From an uncultured Bacilli bacterium (GTDB taxonomy: Bacteria; Bacillota_I; Bacilli_A; RF39; UBA660): 64,000 bases of DNA. A program made the position numbers and the translations under genes. The notes under the pieces are model-generated. The model was given only the letters and a program-made list of their open reading frames with translations. It was not told where the DNA came from and did not search any database. The stretch is taken from the NCBI GenBank assembly GCA_947630575.1, contig CANRIB010000003.1, positions 15,670 through 79,669 of the forward strand. Reading direction: 5' to 3'. Positions 4,090 through 59,206 of this stretch are shown piece after piece (the stretch's first letter is position 1; every line of letters begins with the position of its first letter).

Positions 4090-4533
4090 CTAAATAGATT
4101 CATCCACTTTCCCCAGTAAATAATCAGCAGAAACTTTATATGTTTTACATATCGCATAAAGATAAAAAGTAGAAACTAAATTACTACCTCTTTCATACAT
4201 TGCAATAGACGATTGAGTAGTTTTCAATATTTCTGCTAATTTTTCTTGTGTAATTTTATTACTTTTTCTCCAGTCTTTAAGTCTTTTTCCAATCAAAACT
4301 TTATCATTATTTATTTTTTCAAAAGTTAATTCTTTTTTAGAAGTTAAACCAAACATATAATCCATTGAAACATGATAATAATTACATAACTTAATTAAAT
4401 ATTTAAGAGGCATAATAAAACACTCGCTCTCATAATGCGTATAGGTTATTTCATTAATTCCTAAAACTTTAGCAATATCTTTTTGCAACAAATTTTTATT
4501 AATTCTAAGTTCTTTCAAAGTTTCAGCATACAT
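4090..4533 (-). CDS. tandem (double) XRE-type HTH transcriptional regulator
   Basis: Two HTH units are present (LKELRINKNLLQKDIAKVLGINEITYTHYE and LKDWRKSNKITQEKLAEILKTTQSSIAMYE). The start is moved to MYAETL, which has an AGGTGA RBS. The gene is divergent from the 4702 gene. Confidence 0.75.
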   Translation of the reverse strand: MYAETLKELRINKNLLQKDIAKVLGINEITYTHYESECFIMPLKYLIKLCNYYHVSMDYMFGLTSKKELTFEKINNDKVLIGKRLKDWRKSNKITQEKLAEILKTTQSSIAMYERGSNLVSTFYLYAICKTYKVSADYLLGKVDESI

Positions 4534-4701
4534 AGTTATCACCTGATTTAATTTTCTCATTAAACAAATTCCAAAAAAATATAACCGTTAAAACTATGAT
4601 ATTTTTCTTGACTTTTGACATTTGCTAGATTATAATTTAAGCATAAGTTAGAAATTTCTAATATGATTGATAATAAGTTAATTATAAAGAAGGGAAGATT
4701 A

Positions 4702-6117
4702 ATGAAAGTAGAGAAGTTAAGTAAAAGAAAAAGTAAGAGAATAATATTAGTTATCACAATAATAGTATTGCTAGTAGGAATAATATATATAACAAATAGC
4801 AAAGCAAAATATCAAATAACCAAAAGTGTACAAATAGTTAATGGTAATGTTAATTATAGTTTAGCAGATTTAAATGTGTTAGCATTACAAGTACAAGATA
4901 GTAAAGGTAGTGAAACATATAATCAAGTAGAAACAGTGCCAATTGGTAATTATAAAGTAAATGTAGATAAAAGTTATTGCAAATATCCAGGAGATAATCT
5001 AGAGCATAAAGATATACCAATGGAATATAAAAATAATAGAGTTAGTATAAGTATAAACAAAAAGGGAACAAAATGTTATATATATTTAGATGTAGCAAGC
5101 ACTAAAAAAGTAGAAACAGCATTAGGAACTATAGATGTTAATTTATATATACCAGATTTTAATAAAACATCATGTGAAGATGGCTGTGAAGAAGCAACCA
5201 ATGGAATATATGAAGGAGAAGAAAATGGATTACCAACATATTATTTCCGAGGAACAGTAGATAATAACTATGTATTATTTGCAAATATGTATTGGCGCAT
5301 CATCCGAATTAATAGCAATGGTTCAATCAGAATTATTTATAATGGTTCTACACCAGGAGCAACAGGAAAAGCAACACAACTAAATAATGGAGAAGCGCAA
5401 ACATTTAGTAAAGATGCTAAAAACGACGACAATGCTTATGTAGGATATATGTATGGAGAAACTAGTCAAGCGCAAAGTCTAGATGGCTACAATGCAACTC
5501 ATGCAAACACTCATGATAGTGGAATAAAAGAATATATAGATAATTGGTATAAAAATGTATTATCAAAAGCAAAAAATAATGAAAAAAATGCAACAGAATA
5601 TATAGACATAGAAGCGGGATTTTGTGGAGATAGAACACCATTTCAATTTGATGGGATAAGTGTAACAACCAAACCAGATAAAAATGAATATGGAGCAGGA
5701 ACAACACCAACATATTATGGAGCATGGTATAGAAGAGATAGATCACATCAACTAACATTTGATTGTCCAAATGTATCAAATGACTTGTATACAGTAAGTG
5801 GAGCAAAAACTGGAAATCATGCTTTAACTAATCCAATAGGTTTAATAACAGCAGACGAAGTAATGTATGCAGGAGGACAACATAAAATTAATTCTGAATA
5901 CTGGTTATATACAGGAGAAGCAGGCTATTGGACCATGTCTTCGTCTAGCTTTAACAAAAATCCAGCTTTAGCTACCATACTGCATGTTAGTTCGGATGGC
6001 ACTCTGGGAGGCGACTACGTGAGCACAAAGCGTGGTGTGCGTCCTGTAATAAATTTGAAGGCTAATACTAAATTTACAGGAAGTGGAACAACAGATAGTC
6101 CATTTGTAGTTCAATAA
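4702..6117 (+). CDS. exported/membrane-anchored protein, paralog family member A1 (DUF6273-like C-terminal domain)
   Basis: N-terminal basic stretch plus TM (KRKSKRIILVITIIVLLVGIIY), with GAAGGGA RBS before the MKVEKL start. The C-terminal roughly 330 aa look about three-quarters identical by eye to the 56234..58081 product (YYFRGTVDNNYVLFANMYWRIIRINSNGSIRIIY, NPIGLITADEV, VRPVINLKAN). Confidence 0.75.
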   Translation: MKVEKLSKRKSKRIILVITIIVLLVGIIYITNSKAKYQITKSVQIVNGNVNYSLADLNVLALQVQDSKGSETYNQVETVPIGNYKVNVDKSYCKYPGDNLEHKDIPMEYKNNRVSISINKKGTKCYIYLDVASTKKVETALGTIDVNLYIPDFNKTSCEDGCEEATNGIYEGEENGLPTYYFRGTVDNNYVLFANMYWRIIRINSNGSIRIIYNGSTPGATGKATQLNNGEAQTFSKDAKNDDNAYVGYMYGETSQAQSLDGYNATHANTHDSGIKEYIDNWYKNVLSKAKNNEKNATEYIDIEAGFCGDRTPFQFDGISVTTKPDKNEYGAGTTPTYYGAWYRRDRSHQLTFDCPNVSNDLYTVSGAKTGNHALTNPIGLITADEVMYAGGQHKINSEYWLYTGEAGYWTMSSSSFNKNPALATILHVSSDGTLGGDYVSTKRGVRPVINLKANTKFTGSGTTDSPFVVQ

Positions 6118-54736: not shown

Positions 54737-54781
54737 GTATATCTTTTTTTTATTTGTACAAATTAATAAAAGGTGTTATAT

Positions 54782-55510
54782 ATGAAAAAAGTGTTTATTG
54801 ATTCTTCTAAAATAATTAAAGATAATTTACTTAAAATAGACGAAGTTAACCATCATGGTTATAGTATTACTCATTTTAAAGTAAACGAAACTAATGAAAA
54901 GCTCTTAAAAAGAATAAAAGGGGACTATTACACGATTAATTTTGACTATGTAAGTTTACAAAAAAAATCTAAACAAATAAAAAAAGAATTAATGAAAATA
55001 CTAAATAATCTTTTTAAAAATGAAAATCCTCCTAAACCCTTAATAATAGGCTTAGGTAATTCTAGTATTACCTGTGATAGTTTAGGTGTTAATGTCACGA
55101 ATAAAGTTATGGCCACCAATCATTTTAATGATTTTTTAAATATTCCTAAAGTGGCTTTATTTAATCCTGAAGTAACTGAAAAAACAGGTATAAGCTCTTT
55201 TAGTTTAATTGAAATGGTCGTAAAAAAATTAAAGCCCACCGTGATAGTTATGATAGATACTTTAGCAACAAATAATGAGAATAATCTAAATAATTGTATT
55301 GAAATAAATAATACCGGTATTATTCCGGGAAGTGCTATTAAAGAAAATAAAAAAATAGATGCTAAAACATTTAATATTCCTGTAATAGCAATCGGAGTAC
55401 CATTAGTATTAGAATTTAATAAAAATCTTTATACTACTCCCAATGTTGCAAATATAATCGAAATAACTAGTAATATTATTAGTAGTGCTCTAAACGATTT
55501 ATTCTTTTAA
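54782..55510 (+). CDS. gpr: germination protease GPR (short form)
   Basis: Collinear GPR blocks are present (LIIGLGNSSITCDSLG, VIVMIDTLAT, INNTGIIPGSAI, IPVIAIGVPLVL), including both catalytic-Asp contexts. It is 242 aa, compared with about 370 aa typically. Confidence 0.75.
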   Translation: MKKVFIDSSKIIKDNLLKIDEVNHHGYSITHFKVNETNEKLLKRIKGDYYTINFDYVSLQKKSKQIKKELMKILNNLFKNENPPKPLIIGLGNSSITCDSLGVNVTNKVMATNHFNDFLNIPKVALFNPEVTEKTGISSFSLIEMVVKKLKPTVIVMIDTLATNNENNLNNCIEINNTGIIPGSAIKENKKIDAKTFNIPVIAIGVPLVLEFNKNLYTTPNVANIIEITSNIISSALNDLFF

Positions 55511-55557
55511 ATCAAAAATACTTGCATTTTACCTATGTTTTAGTATATAATATGATT

Positions 55558-55646
55558 AGGACAAACAAAAAGAGGCACTTGTTGGTGTTCTCAGTCCAAT
55601 GTTTTTGGTTTTGAACACCTAACAAATTGTAGGTGTTCTATTTTTT
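55558..55646 (+). ncRNA. candidate antisense (antitoxin) sRNA of the second type I TA-like module
   Basis: Promoter is TTGCAT (55522-55527), 18 nt, then TATAAT (55546-55551). An intrinsic terminator gaacaccta/taggtgttc plus T-run lies at 55613-55646. The sRNA is convergent with the 19-aa ORF and lies in its 3' UTR. Confidence 0.35.
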
Positions 55647-55651
55647 ATTAG

Positions 55652-55711
55652 TTATTTTAATATTTTGGCAATAAGTACCAAAATCAAAATAAGTACAATC
55701 AAGTACTCCAT
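55652..55711 (-). CDS. candidate type I toxin, 19-aa hydrophobic peptide (MEYLIVLILILVLIAKILK)
   Basis: Too small for the ORF track. AAGGAGAAG RBS lies 2-3 nt upstream (tight spacing). The minus-strand promoter is TTGACC (55851-55846), 18 nt, then TATAAT (55827-55822). 5'/3' UTR complementarity is present. Confidence 0.4.
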   Translation of the reverse strand: MEYLIVLILILVLIAKILK

Positions 55712-55934
55712 ACTTCTCCTTAAAACTAAGTAGCTTCATGGACTTCACCTCACTTTCTATAATATTATTTCTAATAAAATAGGACTGAGGAATAAAACAC
55801 CAAACTTGTGCCTCTAATAAAATTATAAAATGCTAAATATATTTTGGTCAAATAAATTTTACATAAGTTTACATAAATATTTTTAAACATCTAACAAATA
55901 AGTGTAGATGTTTTTTTAGTTTACTAATTATTAT

Positions 55935-56150
55935 TTATTTTTGTGCTTCAATAATAATATTTAAATCAAATTCTTTAGCAATGTTAATTAATGTTTCAAA
56001 AGTATAATTAACAGTTCCATATTCATACTTCTCAATAGAACTTTTGCTAACATTAATTTTTTTAGCAAATTCTTCTTGAGTTAAATTTAAACTTTGTCTT
56101 ATAAATTTTAGAATATCATTAGCTTTATATTTTTTTGCATCTATTTTCAT
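55935..56150 (-). CDS. XRE-family HTH transcriptional regulator
   Basis: ILKFIRQSLNLTQEEFAKKINVSKSSIEKYEYG is a typical HTH. The start is moved to MKIDAKK, which has a GGGTGA RBS. The gene is divergent from the 56234 gene. Confidence 0.75.
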   Translation of the reverse strand: MKIDAKKYKANDILKFIRQSLNLTQEEFAKKINVSKSSIEKYEYGTVNYTFETLINIAKEFDLNIIIEAQK

Positions 56151-56161
56151 TAAATCACCCG

Positions 56162-56216
56162 TTGACATCGTAACATATTACGTATATAATATTAATGAAA
56201 GTCGTAATATATTACG
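56162..56216 (+). promoter_or_regulatory. promoter of family member A2 with two palindromic operator-like sites
   Basis: TTGACA (56162-56167), 17 nt, then TATAAT (56185-56190). cgtaaCATAttacg (56169-56182) fills the spacer, and the perfect palindrome cgtaatatattacg (56203-56216) lies just downstream. Confidence 0.5.
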
Positions 56217-56233
56217 AGTAAAGGAAGGGCAAA

Positions 56234-58081
56234 ATGAAAAAGAATAAAAGAGTAATAATATTGTTAAGTGTATTAATATTAGGAATAGGTGTATCTTTAG
56301 CATACTTTGTAGGTAAAACAATATTTAAGGGAACAGGAGCCACAACAGAAGGAAGAACGGCAACCATAAATGGTTCAACATTAGATATAAGTGGTAATAT
56401 AGAGTTTAAAGATATAGATATATATCCAGGACATCAAACATTATCTAAAGTAACAGCGACTGCAACAGGTAATAATGAACTTATAGCCTATAACTTAACA
56501 TGGATAGGAACAAATGATTTAAGTACTAATTTAAAATATAAAGTATATGTATCAGAAGAAAATAAAGATATAGAATTAAATTGTGAAAAGAAAAAGAAAG
56601 TAGTAAATGGAGCCCAACAATTAAATGAAGTATGTACATCAAATATAGAAGAATTAGGAGAACCAATAAGTGAAGGAGAGATATCAGAAATAACAGAAGA
56701 AGAACAAACAATAAAAATAACTAATACCGAGTTTATAACAGCAAAAGAAAAAGGAACAAAGAAATATTATTATATCATAGTAGAATATCCAGATAAAGAA
56801 GATCAAAGTATAGATATAGGAGAAGGCTTTAAAGGAAAAGTATATGGAGAGATAAGTAATACTAAAGCAGATATAAACCTAGTGGCATTTTATCAAGAAA
56901 CAGAAGAAGGCAAATATGAAGAAGTAGAAGAAATACCGAAAGAGGGATATGTATTAAATCAAAAAGAAACAAAATGTAATAATGAAGAAGTGAAAGTGAG
57001 AATAGAGAATAATGAGATAATATTAACAAATGTAAGCAAAAGTGGAACAGCTTGTTATTTGTATTTTTCTAAACCAACATCAGATAAAACATTGGCAGCA
57101 TTAAAATTAACATTGAATAATGAAATTCCAGATTTTAGTAAAACAAGTTGTGAGGAGGGATGTGACGAATCAACCAATGGAGTGTTTAAAGGAGAAGAAA
57201 ATGGACAACCAACATATTATTTCCGAGGCACAGTAGATAATAACTATGTATTATTTGCAGGATATTATTGGCGAATCATCCGAATAAATAGTAATGGCTC
57301 AATTCGTATAATTTATAGTGGAACCACAGCCGGAGCAACAGGAAAATCAGCTCAATTAAATAATGGAATAACTCAAGTATTTAATAGAGTAGATGATGAT
57401 AATGCATATGTAGGATATATGTATGGGGAAACTAGTCAACCACAAAATGCAGCAGGATATGATGCAACCCATAAAAATACAAATAATAGCGTAACAAAAA
57501 CCTACATAGATAATTGGTATACAAATACATTGTCAAAAGCAAAAAATAATGGAAAAAACGCAACAGAATATATAGATACAGAAGCAGGTTTTTGTGGAGA
57601 TAGAACACCATATGAATATGGTAATTTATCGATAGATTCACAGCCTGACAATAAAAAGTATGGCATAGGAAAAATAACAACATATTATGGAGCATATTAT
57701 AGAATAAATAAATCGCATCAACCAACATTTGATTGTCCAAATCCTTCAAATAATTTGTACACAGTAAGTGGAGCAGAAACAGGAAATAAGTCTTTAACAA
57801 ATCCAATAGGCTTAATCACCGCAGATGAAGTAATATATGCAGGAGGGCAAACAAAAGAAAACAGATATTACTGGTTGTATACAGGCGGAGAAGCTTATTG
57901 GACAATATCACCATATTATTTTGACGGGACTTATGCTGTTATATCTAATGTACATTTGGATGGAGGTATTAATTATAATCGAGCAGATAATGGAAAGAGC
58001 ATTCGACCTGTTATAAATCTTAAGGCAGATGTATCAATAACAGGAAGTGGCACAATAGATTCTCCATATGAAATATCTTAA
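56234..58081 (+). CDS. exported protein, paralog family member A2 (TasA/camelysin-like signal region + DUF6273-like C-terminal domain)
   Basis: The N-terminus is MKKNKRVIILLSVLILGIGVSLAYFVGKT...GSTLDISG. The C-terminal roughly 330 aa are paralogous to 4702..6117. Confidence 0.75.
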   Translation: MKKNKRVIILLSVLILGIGVSLAYFVGKTIFKGTGATTEGRTATINGSTLDISGNIEFKDIDIYPGHQTLSKVTATATGNNELIAYNLTWIGTNDLSTNLKYKVYVSEENKDIELNCEKKKKVVNGAQQLNEVCTSNIEELGEPISEGEISEITEEEQTIKITNTEFITAKEKGTKKYYYIIVEYPDKEDQSIDIGEGFKGKVYGEISNTKADINLVAFYQETEEGKYEEVEEIPKEGYVLNQKETKCNNEEVKVRIENNEIILTNVSKSGTACYLYFSKPTSDKTLAALKLTLNNEIPDFSKTSCEEGCDESTNGVFKGEENGQPTYYFRGTVDNNYVLFAGYYWRIIRINSNGSIRIIYSGTTAGATGKSAQLNNGITQVFNRVDDDNAYVGYMYGETSQPQNAAGYDATHKNTNNSVTKTYIDNWYTNTLSKAKNNGKNATEYIDTEAGFCGDRTPYEYGNLSIDSQPDNKKYGIGKITTYYGAYYRINKSHQPTFDCPNPSNNLYTVSGAETGNKSLTNPIGLITADEVIYAGGQTKENRYYWLYTGGEAYWTISPYYFDGTYAVISNVHLDGGINYNRADNGKSIRPVINLKADVSITGSGTIDSPYEIS

Positions 58082-58291
58082 AGTAAAATAAATTCCTTGT
58101 CTATTATGCTTATCCTTTTTATTAATAGACAAGATTATGGGTTACCTTTACCCAACATAATACATGAATAGAAAGTTTTTACTTTCTGTTCTTTTAATTT
58201 AAAAAATAATTATCTTAAAAATAAACATTAATATTATACTTCGACAAGTTTTTCTAAACTTATTATATATAATATACTAAAGGTGAATTAT

Positions 58292-59206
58292 ATGCGTCGA
58301 TTTATAACTAAAAGAAAAGTAAAAATCCCCAGATATAAAATATTATCAATAAAAATAGTATCATTTTTACTTCTATTTTCATTTATATACATAATATTTA
58401 GTATCATAATTACCAAAGATAATTCTCCACTTTTAAATATTATAGGCAGCAATTCTTTTGGTAATAATTTAAGTAGTTATAACATATATAAAAATAACAA
58501 ACAACTATTTTATCAAAACAGTTTTGGCTCATATTCCAGTACCACCAAAACAAGTTACAATAGTTCTAACTTACATGAATTAATATTATCTAAACCTCTT
58601 ATATACATTTATAATACTTTCCAAACTGAAAAATATAAAAGTACAAATAATAATGATTATAATGTTAATTCCGTTATAAGTGCCGCGAGTTTAATACTAT
58701 CCGAATATTTAAAAAAAGAAGGTATTAAATCTCTAGTAGAACTAGAAAATATTGATAAACTAGCTCAAGAAAAGAATTATAGTTCTAACTATCTTACATC
58801 TAAGTATCTTTTAAATAAAGCCAAAAAAGAAAATCCCAGTCTAAATTATTATTTTGATCTTCAAATATCTTCCGCCTCCTATTCTGAAACAACCTATGAA
58901 ACCCCAGAAAAAAATTATGCTAAAATAAGATTTATTATTGGTACCAATTATGATTCTTATAAAGAAAATCTTAAATTTGCAACTTTACTTAACACTAAAT
59001 TAACCATCCAAAATTCCAATTTATCTCGCGGAATATCTTTAGAAGGTGGAACTGATAATGAAGGAATATATAACGAAGACATAAACTCTCATGTTTTATT
59101 AATTGAGGTTGGTGGTAAAGAAAATACTATCGCGGAAGTTAATAACACTTTAAAAGTTTTTGCCAGTATTATAAAGGAGGCCATCAATGAAGAAGAAAAA
59201 AAGTAA
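58292..59206 (+). CDS. spoIIP: stage II sporulation protein P
   Basis: N-terminal TM, with the SpoIIP blocks PLIYIYNTFQTEKY and HVLLIEVGGKENTIAEVNNT. Confidence 0.8.
   Translation: MRRFITKRKVKIPRYKILSIKIVSFLLLFSFIYIIFSIIITKDNSPLLNIIGSNSFGNNLSSYNIYKNNKQLFYQNSFGSYSSTTKTSYNSSNLHELILSKPLIYIYNTFQTEKYKSTNNNDYNVNSVISAASLILSEYLKKEGIKSLVELENIDKLAQEKNYSSNYLTSKYLLNKAKKENPSLNYYFDLQISSASYSETTYETPEKNYAKIRFIIGTNYDSYKENLKFATLLNTKLTIQNSNLSRGISLEGGTDNEGIYNEDINSHVLLIEVGGKENTIAEVNNTLKVFASIIKEAINEEEKK

What the first reader, a model, noticed from the sequence alone, without database searches (positions are those of the whole stretch)
55522..55851. Type I toxin-antitoxin-like module 2: mirrored copy of the same architecture with an unrelated 19-aa peptide
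Seen in sequence:
- A minus-strand promoter (TTGACC-18-TATAAT) and an AAGGAGAAG SD precede the ORF MEYLIVLILILVLIAKILK (55711-55652).
- The mRNA 5' segment (plus-strand coordinates 55782-55814, ggactgaggaataaaacaccaaacttgtgcctc) is an inverted repeat of 55572-55597 (gaggcacttgttggtgttctcagtcc), which lies in its 3' region.
- A plus-strand sRNA is predicted from TTGCAT-18-TATAAT to a clean terminator (55613-55646). It covers exactly that 3' region.

The layout is the mirror image of module 1, although the peptides are not similar. This module sits directly upstream of cassette A2.

Inference: two independent type I TA-like modules flank the A-type cassettes and may stabilise these accessory insertions.
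Basis: partly seen in the sequence, partly recalled or inferred. Interest (0 to 1): 0.6.

Follow-up and report, generated by a model that had tools for sequence, protein, structure and literature searches.

The report
Tiny membrane peptide with antisense RNA
This 330-base stretch is a self-contained gene pair: a 19-residue greasy membrane peptide and a convergent antisense RNA, built like a type I toxin-antitoxin module. It belongs to a family with no match in the curated libraries searched, found only in one lineage of small-genome, uncultured gut bacteria.

Summary
The unit occurs five times in this 1.33-Mb genome (three full copies, two partial). A covariance model finds it in 41 of 401 genomes (30 of 214 genera) of the same GTDB family. 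A class-wide sample gave no hit outside that family.

Across about 30 loci:
- The peptide frame (consensus M-E/D-Y-L-[IV]-x-L-[IV][IV]-I-L..., 17-24 aa) is kept by NTN codons and by ATG/GTG/TTG starts.
- The first bases of the mRNA pair with its last bases in a long closing helix with strong compensatory changes.
- That helix starts 5-7 nt after a -10 box and ends directly before a U-run.
- The hairpin after the stop codon carries its U-run only on the opposite strand.
- An antisense -10 box sits at a fixed distance beyond the helix.

The best reading is a new type I toxin-antitoxin-like family, with the antisense RNA overlapping the mRNA 3' end. Peptide and RNAs match no Pfam, NCBIfam or Rfam family.

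Not shown: transcripts, toxicity, and any role in stabilising the neighbouring cassette. The cassette link holds only in this genome and one close relative.

The parts
55822..55851 (-). Promoter of the peptide mRNA: TTGACC-18-TATAAT
   Evidence: 11 of 12 matches. In 29 related loci a TATAAT-like -10 ends 5-7 nt before the first base of the 5' arm.
55561..55816 (-). Predicted peptide mRNA (about 255 nt), from the first base of the closing helix to the U-run after it
   Evidence: Folding z = -7.2. All six full-length relatives fold the same way on their own. The ends are inferred from the promoter and the U-run. No transcript data are available.
55782..55815 (-). 5' arm of the closing helix (AGAGGCACAAGUUUGGUGUUUUAUUCCUCAGUCC)
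   Evidence: Pairs with 55572-55597 at -35.4 kcal/mol. 14 of 18 consensus pairs show compensatory changes.
55712..55781 (-). 5' UTR with a local hairpin (CCUCA/UGAGG), a GUCCAUG element that pairs with the start-codon region, and the SD AAGGAG (55721-55716)
   Evidence: MFE structure. CCUCA/UGAGG changes to CCUCG/CGAGG in copy C4 and in L039. Predicted P(unpaired) of the ribosome-binding site is about 0.45.
55652..55711 (-). ORF for the 19-aa peptide MEYLIVLILILVLIAKILK, with stop codon
   Evidence: Family-wide codon-position entropies are 1.23 / 0.34 / 1.46 bits. The synonymous fraction is 0.37 in this frame against 0.17 and 0.03 in the other two. Paralogues differ by synonymous and K-to-R or I-to-V changes.
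55613..55648 (+). Intrinsic terminator of the antisense RNA (GAACACCUA...UAGGUGUUC plus U-run), ending a few nt short of the stop codon
   Evidence: In 26 of 31 family loci the U-run is on the antisense strand; in 0 of 31 it is on the peptide strand.
55572..55597 (-). 3' arm of the closing helix (GGACUGAGAACACCAACAAGUGCCUC). Its complement is the body of the antisense RNA.
55561..55571 (-). U-run (UUUUUGUUUGU) directly after the closing helix: the presumed 3' end of the peptide mRNA
   Evidence: 31 of 34 loci have at least 6 T in the 9 nt after the helix. Only 1 of 34 has any local terminator downstream on this strand. No minus-strand terminator was found in 55000-56400.
55522..55551 (+). Promoter of the antisense RNA: TTGCAT-18-TATAAT
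   Evidence: Read from the sequence. An antisense TATAAT/CATAAT lies within 40 nt beyond the helix in 25 of 34 loci, against 10.8% background (p = 1e-17). The offsets cluster at 16-21 nt. TTGCAT-N16-18-TATAAT recurs in C4, C18, L039, L041 and L050.
55558..55648 (+). Predicted antisense sRNA (about 90 nt), fully complementary to the mRNA 3' region and not overlapping the ORF
   Evidence: Bounded by the promoter and the terminator above. Fold (z = -2.1). No Rfam match.

Best explanation
The region is a self-contained type I toxin-antitoxin-like module.

The minus strand makes a mRNA of about 255 nt for a 19-residue hydrophobic peptide. The very first nucleotides of this mRNA pair with its last nucleotides in a three-part closing helix that ends directly at a U-run.

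The plus strand makes a convergent sRNA of about 90 nt. Its own promoter lies just beyond that helix, and it ends at an intrinsic terminator placed just after the peptide stop codon. The sRNA is therefore the perfect complement of the 3' arm of the closing helix and of the 3' UTR.

Proposed working (inferred):
- The closing helix buries both ends of the peptide mRNA and makes it long-lived, while the ribosome-binding site is partly sequestered by a local stem.
- The sRNA invades the 3' arm and forms a duplex of about 85 bp, which is a substrate for RNase III. This frees both mRNA ends for decay and keeps the peptide from being made.
- If the sRNA is lost, the stable mRNA is translated and the peptide inserts into the membrane.

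Shown here by comparison of about 30 loci: the peptide frame is under coding selection, the closing helix is under RNA-level selection on the peptide strand, the hairpin terminates only the antisense strand, and both -10 boxes are positionally conserved.

Inferred only: actual transcripts, RNase III involvement, and toxicity.
For: - Anatomy at the stated coordinates, with folding z = -7.2.
- Five copies in the 1.33-Mb genome. Peptide differences between them are only synonymous or conservative.
- Covariance model R1 finds the unit in 41 of 401 genomes and 30 of 214 genera of the same family, with up to 7 copies per genome. A class-wide sample gave hits only in genomes of this family.
- 31 loci keep an M-[ED]-[YFH]-[LI] hydrophobic ORF of 17-24 aa, with ATG, GTG or TTG starts.
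- Codon-position entropies are 1.23 / 0.34 / 1.46 bits. The frame has no stop in 30 of 30 unique sequences.
- The closing helix is found in 29 of 33 loci. Cognate arms give -34.3 kcal/mol against -23.3 for non-cognate arms.
- 14 of 18 pairs show compensatory changes. 96% of cells are paired against 84% when shuffled and 25-47% when slid; 0 of 500 shuffles reach any observed measure.
- The helix is stronger on the peptide strand in 22 of 29 loci (p = 3e-4), with 57 G-U pairs.
- A -10 box lies 5-7 nt before the helix start, and a U-run follows the helix in 31 of 34 loci.
- The terminator is antisense-specific in 26 of 31 loci against 0 of 31.
- The antisense -10 is enriched and positionally fixed (p = 1e-17).
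- RNase III is encoded in the genome.
- All the partial copies noted (C4 partial, C20, L054, L059, L060, L073) lack the 5' arm, and in some the start of the ORF too, on the peptide-promoter side, and keep the sRNA side.
- The layout (convergent genes, 3' overlap, sequestered RBS) matches Gram-positive type I systems as described in PMC8594479, PMC6562991 and PMC7472228.
Against: - There is no transcript evidence. No RNA run holds the stretch, so both RNAs and their ends are predictions.
- Toxicity is untested. The hydrophobic core is only about 12-16 residues, short for a membrane-spanning helix.
- There is no homology to any known type I toxin or antitoxin RNA.
- The -35 of the sRNA promoter in this copy is weak (3 of 6).
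- Promoter-like hexamers are not enriched over shuffles in this AT-rich DNA.
- The arms used for covariation counts were picked by a duplex search, which inflates the percentage paired. It does not inflate the excess over shuffles or slides.
- Predicted RBS accessibility does not change when the 3' arm is removed. How sRNA binding would affect translation is therefore unclear.
- The family was not found on plasmids or phages, where addiction modules are common.
Confidence: 0.7

Rival explanations
1. It is a harmless small membrane protein gene, for example a modulator of a membrane complex, whose expression is tuned by a cis-antisense RNA. It is neither a toxin nor an addiction module.
For: The coding and RNA evidence shows a translated peptide and an antisense RNA, but says nothing about toxicity. 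In other genera the unit sits in ordinary chromosomal intergenic regions. No plasmid or phage copies were found. The N-terminus MEY is conserved, which could reflect a specific partner.
Against: The distribution is patchy: about 10% of genomes, and absent from one of the two sampled same-genus genomes. Copy number varies from 1 to 7 per genome. There are tandem and truncated copies, and these lose the peptide-promoter side and keep the sRNA side. The C-terminal tails evolve fast. These traits are typical of selfish TA loci rather than of a housekeeping small protein.
Confidence: 0.17
2. It is a non-coding dispersed repeat, such as a MITE-like element with terminal inverted repeats or a purely structural RNA, and the small ORF is incidental.
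For: It is multicopy. Inverted repeats of about 30 nt flank a core of about 170 bp. Copies are intergenic, and paralogues are up to 95% identical.
Against: - A three-base periodicity shows selection for hydrophobic codons, and no stops occur in the frame across 30 diverged sequences.
- The start codon and SD are kept, including through GTG and TTG starts.
- The arms covary rather than keep a fixed transposase-binding sequence. They include 57 G-U pairs, which work only on one strand.
- Both promoters lie outside the inverted repeats.
- No target-site duplication was noticed in the flanks read, though none was specifically searched for.
Confidence: 0.04
3. It is a 3'-end element of the neighbouring genes. 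The plus-strand hairpin would simply be the terminator of the convergent upstream gene (gpr here), and the minus-strand unit would be a 3' UTR or attenuator of the XRE regulator gene.
For: gpr (54773-55510) has no terminator of its own before 55613. In most loci the downstream gene is convergent. In copy C20 the ORF follows the regulator gene without a promoter of its own.
Against: The unit carries its own conserved -10 boxes on both strands at fixed distances. It keeps the same anatomy next to unrelated genes, including loci where the downstream ORF listed is not convergent (L058, L064, L065, L074). The first base after the promoter begins the closing helix, which argues for a separate transcript.
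Confidence: 0.05

Closest known systems
Bacillus subtilis txpA/RatA, bsrG/SR4 and bsrE/SR5 (type I TA with 3'-overlapping antisense RNA)
   Same: The toxin and antitoxin genes are convergent, and the RNAs pair at their 3' ends. The toxin is a small hydrophobic peptide. The ribosome-binding site is sequestered in a short stem. The expected decay route is RNase III (PMC6562991, PMC8594479), and RNase III is present here.
   Different: There is no sequence similarity. The peptide is much shorter: 17-24 aa against 30-59 (the lengths of the known toxins are from my own knowledge). The antisense RNA stops before the ORF instead of overlapping it. The target of the antisense RNA is one strand of a helix that closes the whole transcript. 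These loci are not on prophage-like elements as far as I could see.
Enterococcus faecalis par (fst RNA I / RNA II) and the Fst/Ldr superfamily
   Same: Promoters are convergent, and the antisense RNA overlaps only the 3' UTR. An intramolecular helix sequesters the extreme 5' end of the toxin mRNA, and a stem sequesters the SD (PMC7472228). The peptide has a charged C-terminal tail.
   Different: The peptide has no PXXXG(C) motif and no Pfam hit. The terminator is one-directional, not bidirectional. No direct repeats give a second pairing site at the translation start. Here the 5' end pairs with the very 3' end of the mRNA.
hok/Sok (plasmid R1) and AapA1/IsoA1 (Helicobacter pylori)
   Same: The full-length toxin mRNA is locked by a long-distance 5'-3' interaction, and several alternative pairings are possible (PMC6733600; Franch et al. 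1997, as cited in PMC8594479).
   Different: In those systems the antisense RNA targets the 5' region, and 3' trimming activates translation. Here the antisense RNA targets the 3' arm, and removing that arm in silico does not open the RBS. Those systems are from Gram-negative hosts and their peptides are unrelated.
Ibs/Sib of Escherichia coli
   Same: The peptide is of similar size (the Pfam Ibs_toxin model is 19 positions) and is extremely hydrophobic. The loci are multicopy.
   Different: The Pfam Ibs_toxin match has E = 1.2 and 9.7 bits against a cut-off of 27. Sib RNAs span the whole ORF (PMC8594479), whereas here the sRNA does not reach it.

Membership tests
Type I toxin-antitoxin systems (generic) | Small (under 60 aa) hydrophobic peptide ORF with its own promoter and SD | tested here: met
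   19-aa ORF with SD and promoter. Coding selection across 30 unique sequences.
Type I toxin-antitoxin systems (generic) | Antisense RNA gene with complementarity to the toxin mRNA | tested here: inconclusive
   The conserved antisense -10 and the antisense-only terminator predict an sRNA of about 90 nt. No transcript data exist.
Type I toxin-antitoxin systems (generic) | The peptide is toxic when overproduced, and the RNA neutralises it | not testable with these tools
   Needs expression experiments.
Fst/Ldr (par-like) | Toxin with a PXXXG(C) motif (PMC7472228) or a match to a Pfam type I toxin family | tested here: not met
   None of 31 peptides has Pro in the hydrophobic core. The only Pfam type I toxin family to surface was Ibs_toxin, at E = 1.2.
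Fst/Ldr (par-like) | Bidirectional terminator shared by both RNAs, and direct repeats DRa/DRb giving 5' complementarity | tested here: not met
   The U-run is on the antisense side only. There is no direct repeat between the sRNA and the mRNA 5' region. sRNA pairing with the mRNA 5' part is no better than shuffles.
TxpA/RatA and BsrG/E/H-type | Convergent antisense RNA overlapping the mRNA 3' end and part of the ORF, with homologous toxin or antitoxin sequences | tested here: not met
   The 3' overlap is met, but the sRNA ends before the stop codon. There is no Rfam, Pfam or NCBIfam match.
Ibs/Sib | Match to Pfam Ibs_toxin (PF13956), with an antisense RNA covering the whole ORF | tested here: not met
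   Best E = 1.2, 9.7 bits against a cut-off of 27. The sRNA does not overlap the ORF.
hok/Sok and AapA/IsoA-type regulation | A 5'-3' long-distance interaction that locks translation until 3' processing, with the antisense RNA at the 5' region | tested here: inconclusive
   The long-distance helix is met with covariation. The antisense RNA is at the 3' end. The RBS opening predicted after truncation is not seen (0.445 against 0.42, p = 0.29).

The most novel reading that the evidence does not exclude
The closing helix is itself the intrinsic terminator of the peptide mRNA. Its stem would be formed by the first and last roughly 30 nt of the transcript, with the whole message as the loop, zipped up from a conserved inner helix (CCUCAGUCC/GGACUGAGG) as the 3' arm emerges.

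The antisense RNA has nearly the same sequence as the mRNA's own 5' arm. It would act by strand displacement: it replaces the 5' arm on the 3' arm and so uncaps both ends of the mRNA at once.

A further layer may exist. The same (G)AACACCUA(A/C) motif recurs in the sRNA terminator and in the 3' arm. This gives alternative pairings, including an antiterminator-like form of the nascent sRNA.
Probability: 0.3. Interest if true: 0.75.

Novelty: new member of a known kind. Interest (0 to 1): 0.55.

Why it matters
[quoted passage not shown] This adds a family with no detectable sequence relatives. It is defined by RNA structure as well as by the peptide, and it occurs in uncultured gut Bacilli with genomes of about 0.5-1.7 Mb, where such loci would not be annotated.
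- **Peptide size.** At 17-24 residues the peptides are among the shortest candidate type I toxins.
- **A testable RNA design.** With about 30 diverged examples and clear covariation, the family is a clean natural case of an mRNA whose two ends are tied together exactly from the transcription start to the U-run, with an antisense RNA aimed at one strand of that tie. This makes three questions directly testable: long-range termination, protection of mRNA ends, and control by strand displacement.
- **Annotation.** The covariance model can flag these loci in metagenome-assembled genomes.

Tried and rejected
- **Rfam.** At gathering and at permissive thresholds there is no family for either strand.
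- **Pfam and NCBIfam on ten family peptides.** Nothing significant; Ibs_toxin scored E = 1.2.
- **RNA-seq evidence.** No RNA run holds the stretch. DNA contigs of four gut-metagenome runs (rabbit and other) showed near-identical pieces of the module, but no clear empty site or informative joint.
- **blastn across the family.** Apart from the own-genome copies, only one real hit (G107); the rest were short AT-rich chance matches.
- **Exact-pattern scans.** Genome contigs gave 4 species. Metagenome contigs gave one real hit, nearly identical to L040, and one chance hit in 59% GC DNA.
- **Plasmid and phage collections.** No match.
- **hok-like activation by 3' trimming.** Predicted RBS accessibility is the same in full-length and truncated mRNAs. 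Not adopted.
- **par-like second pairing site at the RBS.** None found.
- **Co-variation between the terminator 5' half and the 3'-arm motif.** The cognate advantage is small (-9.4 against -8.1 and -11.2 against -9.5 kcal/mol). Reported as an observation only.
- **The alternative-frame 36-aa ORF (55638-55748).** Rejected. Its frame has almost no synonymous changes (0.03), and its stop is lost in paralogues (read from the sequences).
- **Module 1 as a member of the same RNA family.** It scores only 18.6 bits, E = 0.17.

Full report
**What is there.**
On the minus strand a strong promoter (TTGACC-18-TATAAT, 55851-55822, 11 of 12 matches) is followed 6 nt later by AGAGGCAC..., the start of a 34-nt segment (55815-55782). 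After a 5' UTR come the SD AAGGAG (55721-55716) and a 19-codon ORF (55711-55655, TAA at 55654-55652) that encodes MEYLIVLILILVLIAKILK. Downstream lie an A-run, a 9-bp GC-containing hairpin (55638-55613 as read on this strand), a spacer, and the segment GGACUGAGAACACCAACAAGUGCCUC (55597-55572). That segment pairs with the 5' segment. A U-run (55571-55561) follows directly.

On the plus strand, TTGCAT-18-TATAAT (55522-55551) points into this 3' region. The same hairpin followed by TATTTTTTAT (55613-55648) is the only terminator-like site in 55000-56400. The predicted plus-strand sRNA of about 90 nt is therefore the exact complement of the mRNA 3' arm and 3' UTR, and it stops a few nt short of the stop codon.

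The predicted mRNA folds with the 5'/3' helix at -78.5 kcal/mol against -48 for shuffles (z = -7.2).

**Not chance: recurrence in the genome.**
The window comes from a 1.33-Mb assembly with 27% GC and 92% completeness. Public runs that hold the stretch are rabbit-gut metagenomes. The 350-bp unit occurs five times:
- this copy;
- C18:2629-2978, 95% identical;
- C4:52158-52498, 81% identical;
- a truncated copy abutting it at C4:52492-52660, which keeps only the sRNA side and the end of an ORF;
- C20:14076-14307, which keeps the SD, ORF, hairpin, 3' arm and sRNA promoter but lacks the mRNA promoter and 5' arm.

The peptides are identical in C18 (one synonymous change), MEYLIVLILILVLIARILR in C4 and MEYLIVLILILVLVAKILK in C20. 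These differ by synonymous changes plus K-to-R and I-to-V only.

**Relatives.**
- An exact-pattern scan of one genome per species found the hairpin and 3'-arm motif in four other uncultured gut or rumen genomes. L039, from a rabbit MAG, has the unit at the same place, convergent with gpr.
- A covariance model covering SD, ORF, hairpin and the start of the 3' arm (R1) found matches at E <= 0.01 in 41 of 401 genomes and 30 of 214 genera of the same GTDB family. Some genomes have up to 7 copies.
- In a sample of 401 genomes spread over the class, the only hits were in genomes of this family.
- blastn alone was nearly blind to the relatives.
- Nothing was found in the plasmid or phage collections.

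**The ORF is coding.**
In 33 of the 36 loci examined a hydrophobic ORF of 17-24 aa starts at the expected place, and 31 of them begin M-[ED]-[YFH]-[LI]. It uses ATG, GTG or TTG. The consensus is M-E/D-Y-L-[IV]-x-L-[IV]-[IV]-I-L-x-[LI]-[LI], followed by a variable polar tail that often ends in KKD, SKD or KD.

Over the first 15 codons of 30 unique sequences:
- entropy is 1.23, 0.34 and 1.46 bits at codon positions 1, 2 and 3 (NTN codons);
- the frame never has a stop;
- 37% of codon differences are synonymous, against 17% and 3% in the other frames.

The overlapping 36-aa alternative frame is not conserved. The peptides match no Pfam or NCBIfam family.

**The closing helix is an RNA structure on the peptide strand.**
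- All six full-length mRNAs first collected fold with the 5'/3' helix on their own, although their arm sequences differ.
- In 29 of 33 loci the 3' arm finds a partner in the upstream 230 nt. Together they form a three-part helix: a variable outer part (AGAGAUACAUUUGAU/AUCAAAUGUAUCUC-like), a middle part (GUUAGGUGUU/AACACCUAAC) and an inner part (CCUCAGUCC/GGACUGAGG).
- Cognate arms pair at -34.3 kcal/mol on average, against -23.3 for non-cognate combinations.
- RNAalifold on 26 distinct arm pairs gives 18 consensus pairs, 14 with compensatory changes.
- Pair counting gives 96% paired against 84% in shuffles and 25-47% when slid by 1-3 columns. There are 59 doubly changed cells against 14.8 expected, and 0 of 500 shuffles reach any observed measure.
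- The arms were selected by a duplex search, so the raw pairing percentage is biased upward. The excess over the controls is not affected.
- The helix is more stable on the peptide strand in 22 of 29 loci (p = 3e-4) and has 57 G-U pairs. This argues against DNA-level terminal inverted repeats.
- A TATAAT-like -10 ends 5-7 nt before the first paired base in almost every locus.
- 31 of 34 loci have at least 6 T in the 9 nt after the last paired base, and only 1 of 34 has any local terminator further downstream on that strand.
- The transcript therefore appears to run exactly from one strand of the helix to the other.

**The antisense RNA.**
- The hairpin after the stop codon is preceded by an A-run on the peptide strand in 26 of 31 loci. 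It is followed by a T-run on that strand in none. It is thus a terminator for the opposite strand only.
- An antisense TATAAT or CATAAT lies within 40 nt beyond the helix in 25 of 34 loci, against 10.8% of random 40-nt windows from the same loci (p = 1e-17). Seventeen of these lie at offsets of 16-21 nt, typically 6-9 nt before a conserved GGAC.
- Some lineages insert an extra 5' hairpin between the promoter and GGAC.
- No transcript data could be found. The RNAs remain predictions.

**What the data do not support.**
- Removing the 3' arm in silico does not open the ribosome-binding site: mean P(unpaired) is 0.445 against 0.42, p = 0.29. A hok- or AapA1-like activation by 3' trimming is therefore not supported.
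- The sRNA has no significant complementarity to the mRNA 5' part or RBS, and no direct repeats link them. A par-like second pairing site is absent.
- Rfam has no match.

**Context.**
Here the unit lies in a 2.8-kb block inserted between gpr (Peptidase_A25, 54773-55510) and spoIIP (58283-59206). The block also holds an XRE-type regulator (HTH_3, 55935-56168, minus strand) and the 615-aa exported protein A2. A2 is 55% identical to A1 at 4663-6117.

In this genome all four loci lie immediately downstream of a small regulator gene, on the same strand, and the regulator is divergent from a surface-protein gene. The syntenic relative L039 also lies just downstream of an XRE-like gene. The C18 copy sits next to a third A-type paralogue.

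In other genera the neighbours are unrelated housekeeping-type genes (by my reading of the translated ORFs; not searched against any library), and the unit usually sits between convergent genes. The cassette link is thus a feature of this lineage, perhaps through co-duplication, and not of the family. A stabilising role is untested.

**Mechanism.**
What is shown is a conserved translated micro-ORF, a conserved transcript-closing helix, and a conserved antisense promoter and terminator pair that places an sRNA over the 3' arm. The following steps are inferred:
- The helix protects both mRNA ends, as the 5' upstream helix does for fst RNA I (PMC7472228).
- The local stem limits ribosome access, as in txpA, bsrG and bsrE (PMC6562991).
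- The sRNA pairs perfectly with about 85 nt of the 3' region. This displaces the 5' arm and creates an RNase III substrate. The enzyme is encoded in this genome, and this is the route used by RatA, SR4 and SR5 (PMC6562991).
- Loss of the sRNA would let the stable mRNA be translated into a membrane-active peptide.

All the partial copies noted lack the 5' arm, and in some the start of the ORF too, on the peptide-promoter side, and keep the sRNA side. This is the direction of decay expected when the peptide is harmful, but the numbers are small.

**Comparison and novelty.**
In layout the module works most like the Gram-positive 3'-overlap type I systems, with a 5'-3' lock reminiscent of hok, AapA1 and the fst upstream helix. 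It is not a member of any of those families:
- the peptide motif, bidirectional terminator and direct repeats of Fst/par are not met;
- the ORF overlap and sequence homology of the TxpA/Bsr type are not met;
- Ibs_toxin scores far below its cut-off.

It is best filed as a new family of a known kind.

The most novel reading not excluded is that the closing helix doubles as a long-range intrinsic terminator, and that the sRNA, which mimics the 5' arm, acts by strand displacement.

**Verdict.**
The type I TA-like interpretation is well supported at the comparative level (about 0.7). Toxicity and the cassette-stabilising idea remain open.

Noticed in passing
window 55856-55912 (+): Just upstream of the peptide promoter lies a second plus-strand hairpin with a T-run (AAACATCTAACAAAT...GTAGATGTTT TTTTTAG). 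It is 89% identical over 19 nt to the start of the sRNA terminator (D2). It is preceded by a stretch 75% like the sRNA promoter region (D1). R1 scores it 18.5 bits on the hairpin positions. It looks like a decayed partial copy of the sRNA side, as at the tandem C4 locus. It could also stop plus-strand read-through into the XRE gene.
   Followed up: partly
window 55857-55876 (minus-strand reading TTATGTAAAC TTATGTAAAA); also C18 and C4 copies: A tandem 10-nt repeat, TTATGTAAA(C/A), lies directly upstream of the -35 of the peptide promoter. It is conserved in the three full copies of this genome but not in L039. It could be an operator or UP-like element, or part of the decayed copy described above.
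   Followed up: no
family loci L041, L047-L052, L055, L057, L058, L061-L063, L068, L069, L071, L074 (SD region): An out-of-frame AUG sits immediately 5' of, or overlapping, the SD (consensus CUAUGA(A/G)AGGA, 13-16 nt before the real start). It is preceded by GGUCC, which can pair with the SD. In the window copy the equivalent GUCCAUG pairs with the start-codon region. The purpose is unknown: it could be an anti-SD stem, or a decoy or stand-by start.
   Followed up: partly
window 55579-55625 (+) and family loci: The motif (G)AACACCUA(A/C) occurs both in the 5' half of the terminator hairpin and in the 3' arm. The 5'-arm element GUUAGGUGUU, and the same element in the sRNA, can therefore pair with either. 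In the nascent sRNA, before the 3' half of the terminator is made, the MFE is a 12-bp antiterminator-like helix at -18 kcal/mol. The motif changes in parallel in a few lineages (ACGCUU in L062 and L074; GUAC in L053 and L069). The overall cognate advantage is small.
   Followed up: partly
A promoter is followed by a 5' arm (GCAAGGCAC...GCTTGCCA), then an SD and a 22-aa ORF, MSKKDFLISTLLIIIILLIIFN. An A-run and a hairpin after the stop codon form an antisense-strand terminator, followed by the 3' arm and an antisense TATAAT. The peptide is unrelated, and R1 gives only 18.6 bits (E = 0.17). The genome thus carries at least three separate families of such modules, counting the 30-aa family noted earlier.
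   Followed up: partly
G000 C4:52492-52660, C20:14076-14307; L054, L059, L060, L073: All the partial copies noted lack the 5' arm, and in some the start of the ORF too, on the peptide-promoter side. They keep the hairpin, the 3'-arm complement and the antisense promoter. These look like orphan antitoxin remnants.
   Followed up: partly
G000 C18:53-2584; window 4090-6117 and 55935-58081: There are three paralogous A-type cassettes, each an exported protein of 484-646 aa with a divergent HTH regulator. A1 and A2 are 55% identical. The C18 paralogue shares an almost identical N-terminal 30 residues with A2. Two of the three carry this peptide module directly behind the regulator gene.
   Followed up: partly
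window 55638-55748 (-): A 36-aa ORF in another frame (GTG start; MKSMKLLSFKEKYGVLDCTYFDFGTYCQNIKITNKK) overlaps the 19-aa ORF. It starts just after a GAGGUG element. It is not conserved: only 3% of differences in that frame are synonymous, and its stop is lost in paralogues.
   Followed up: yes
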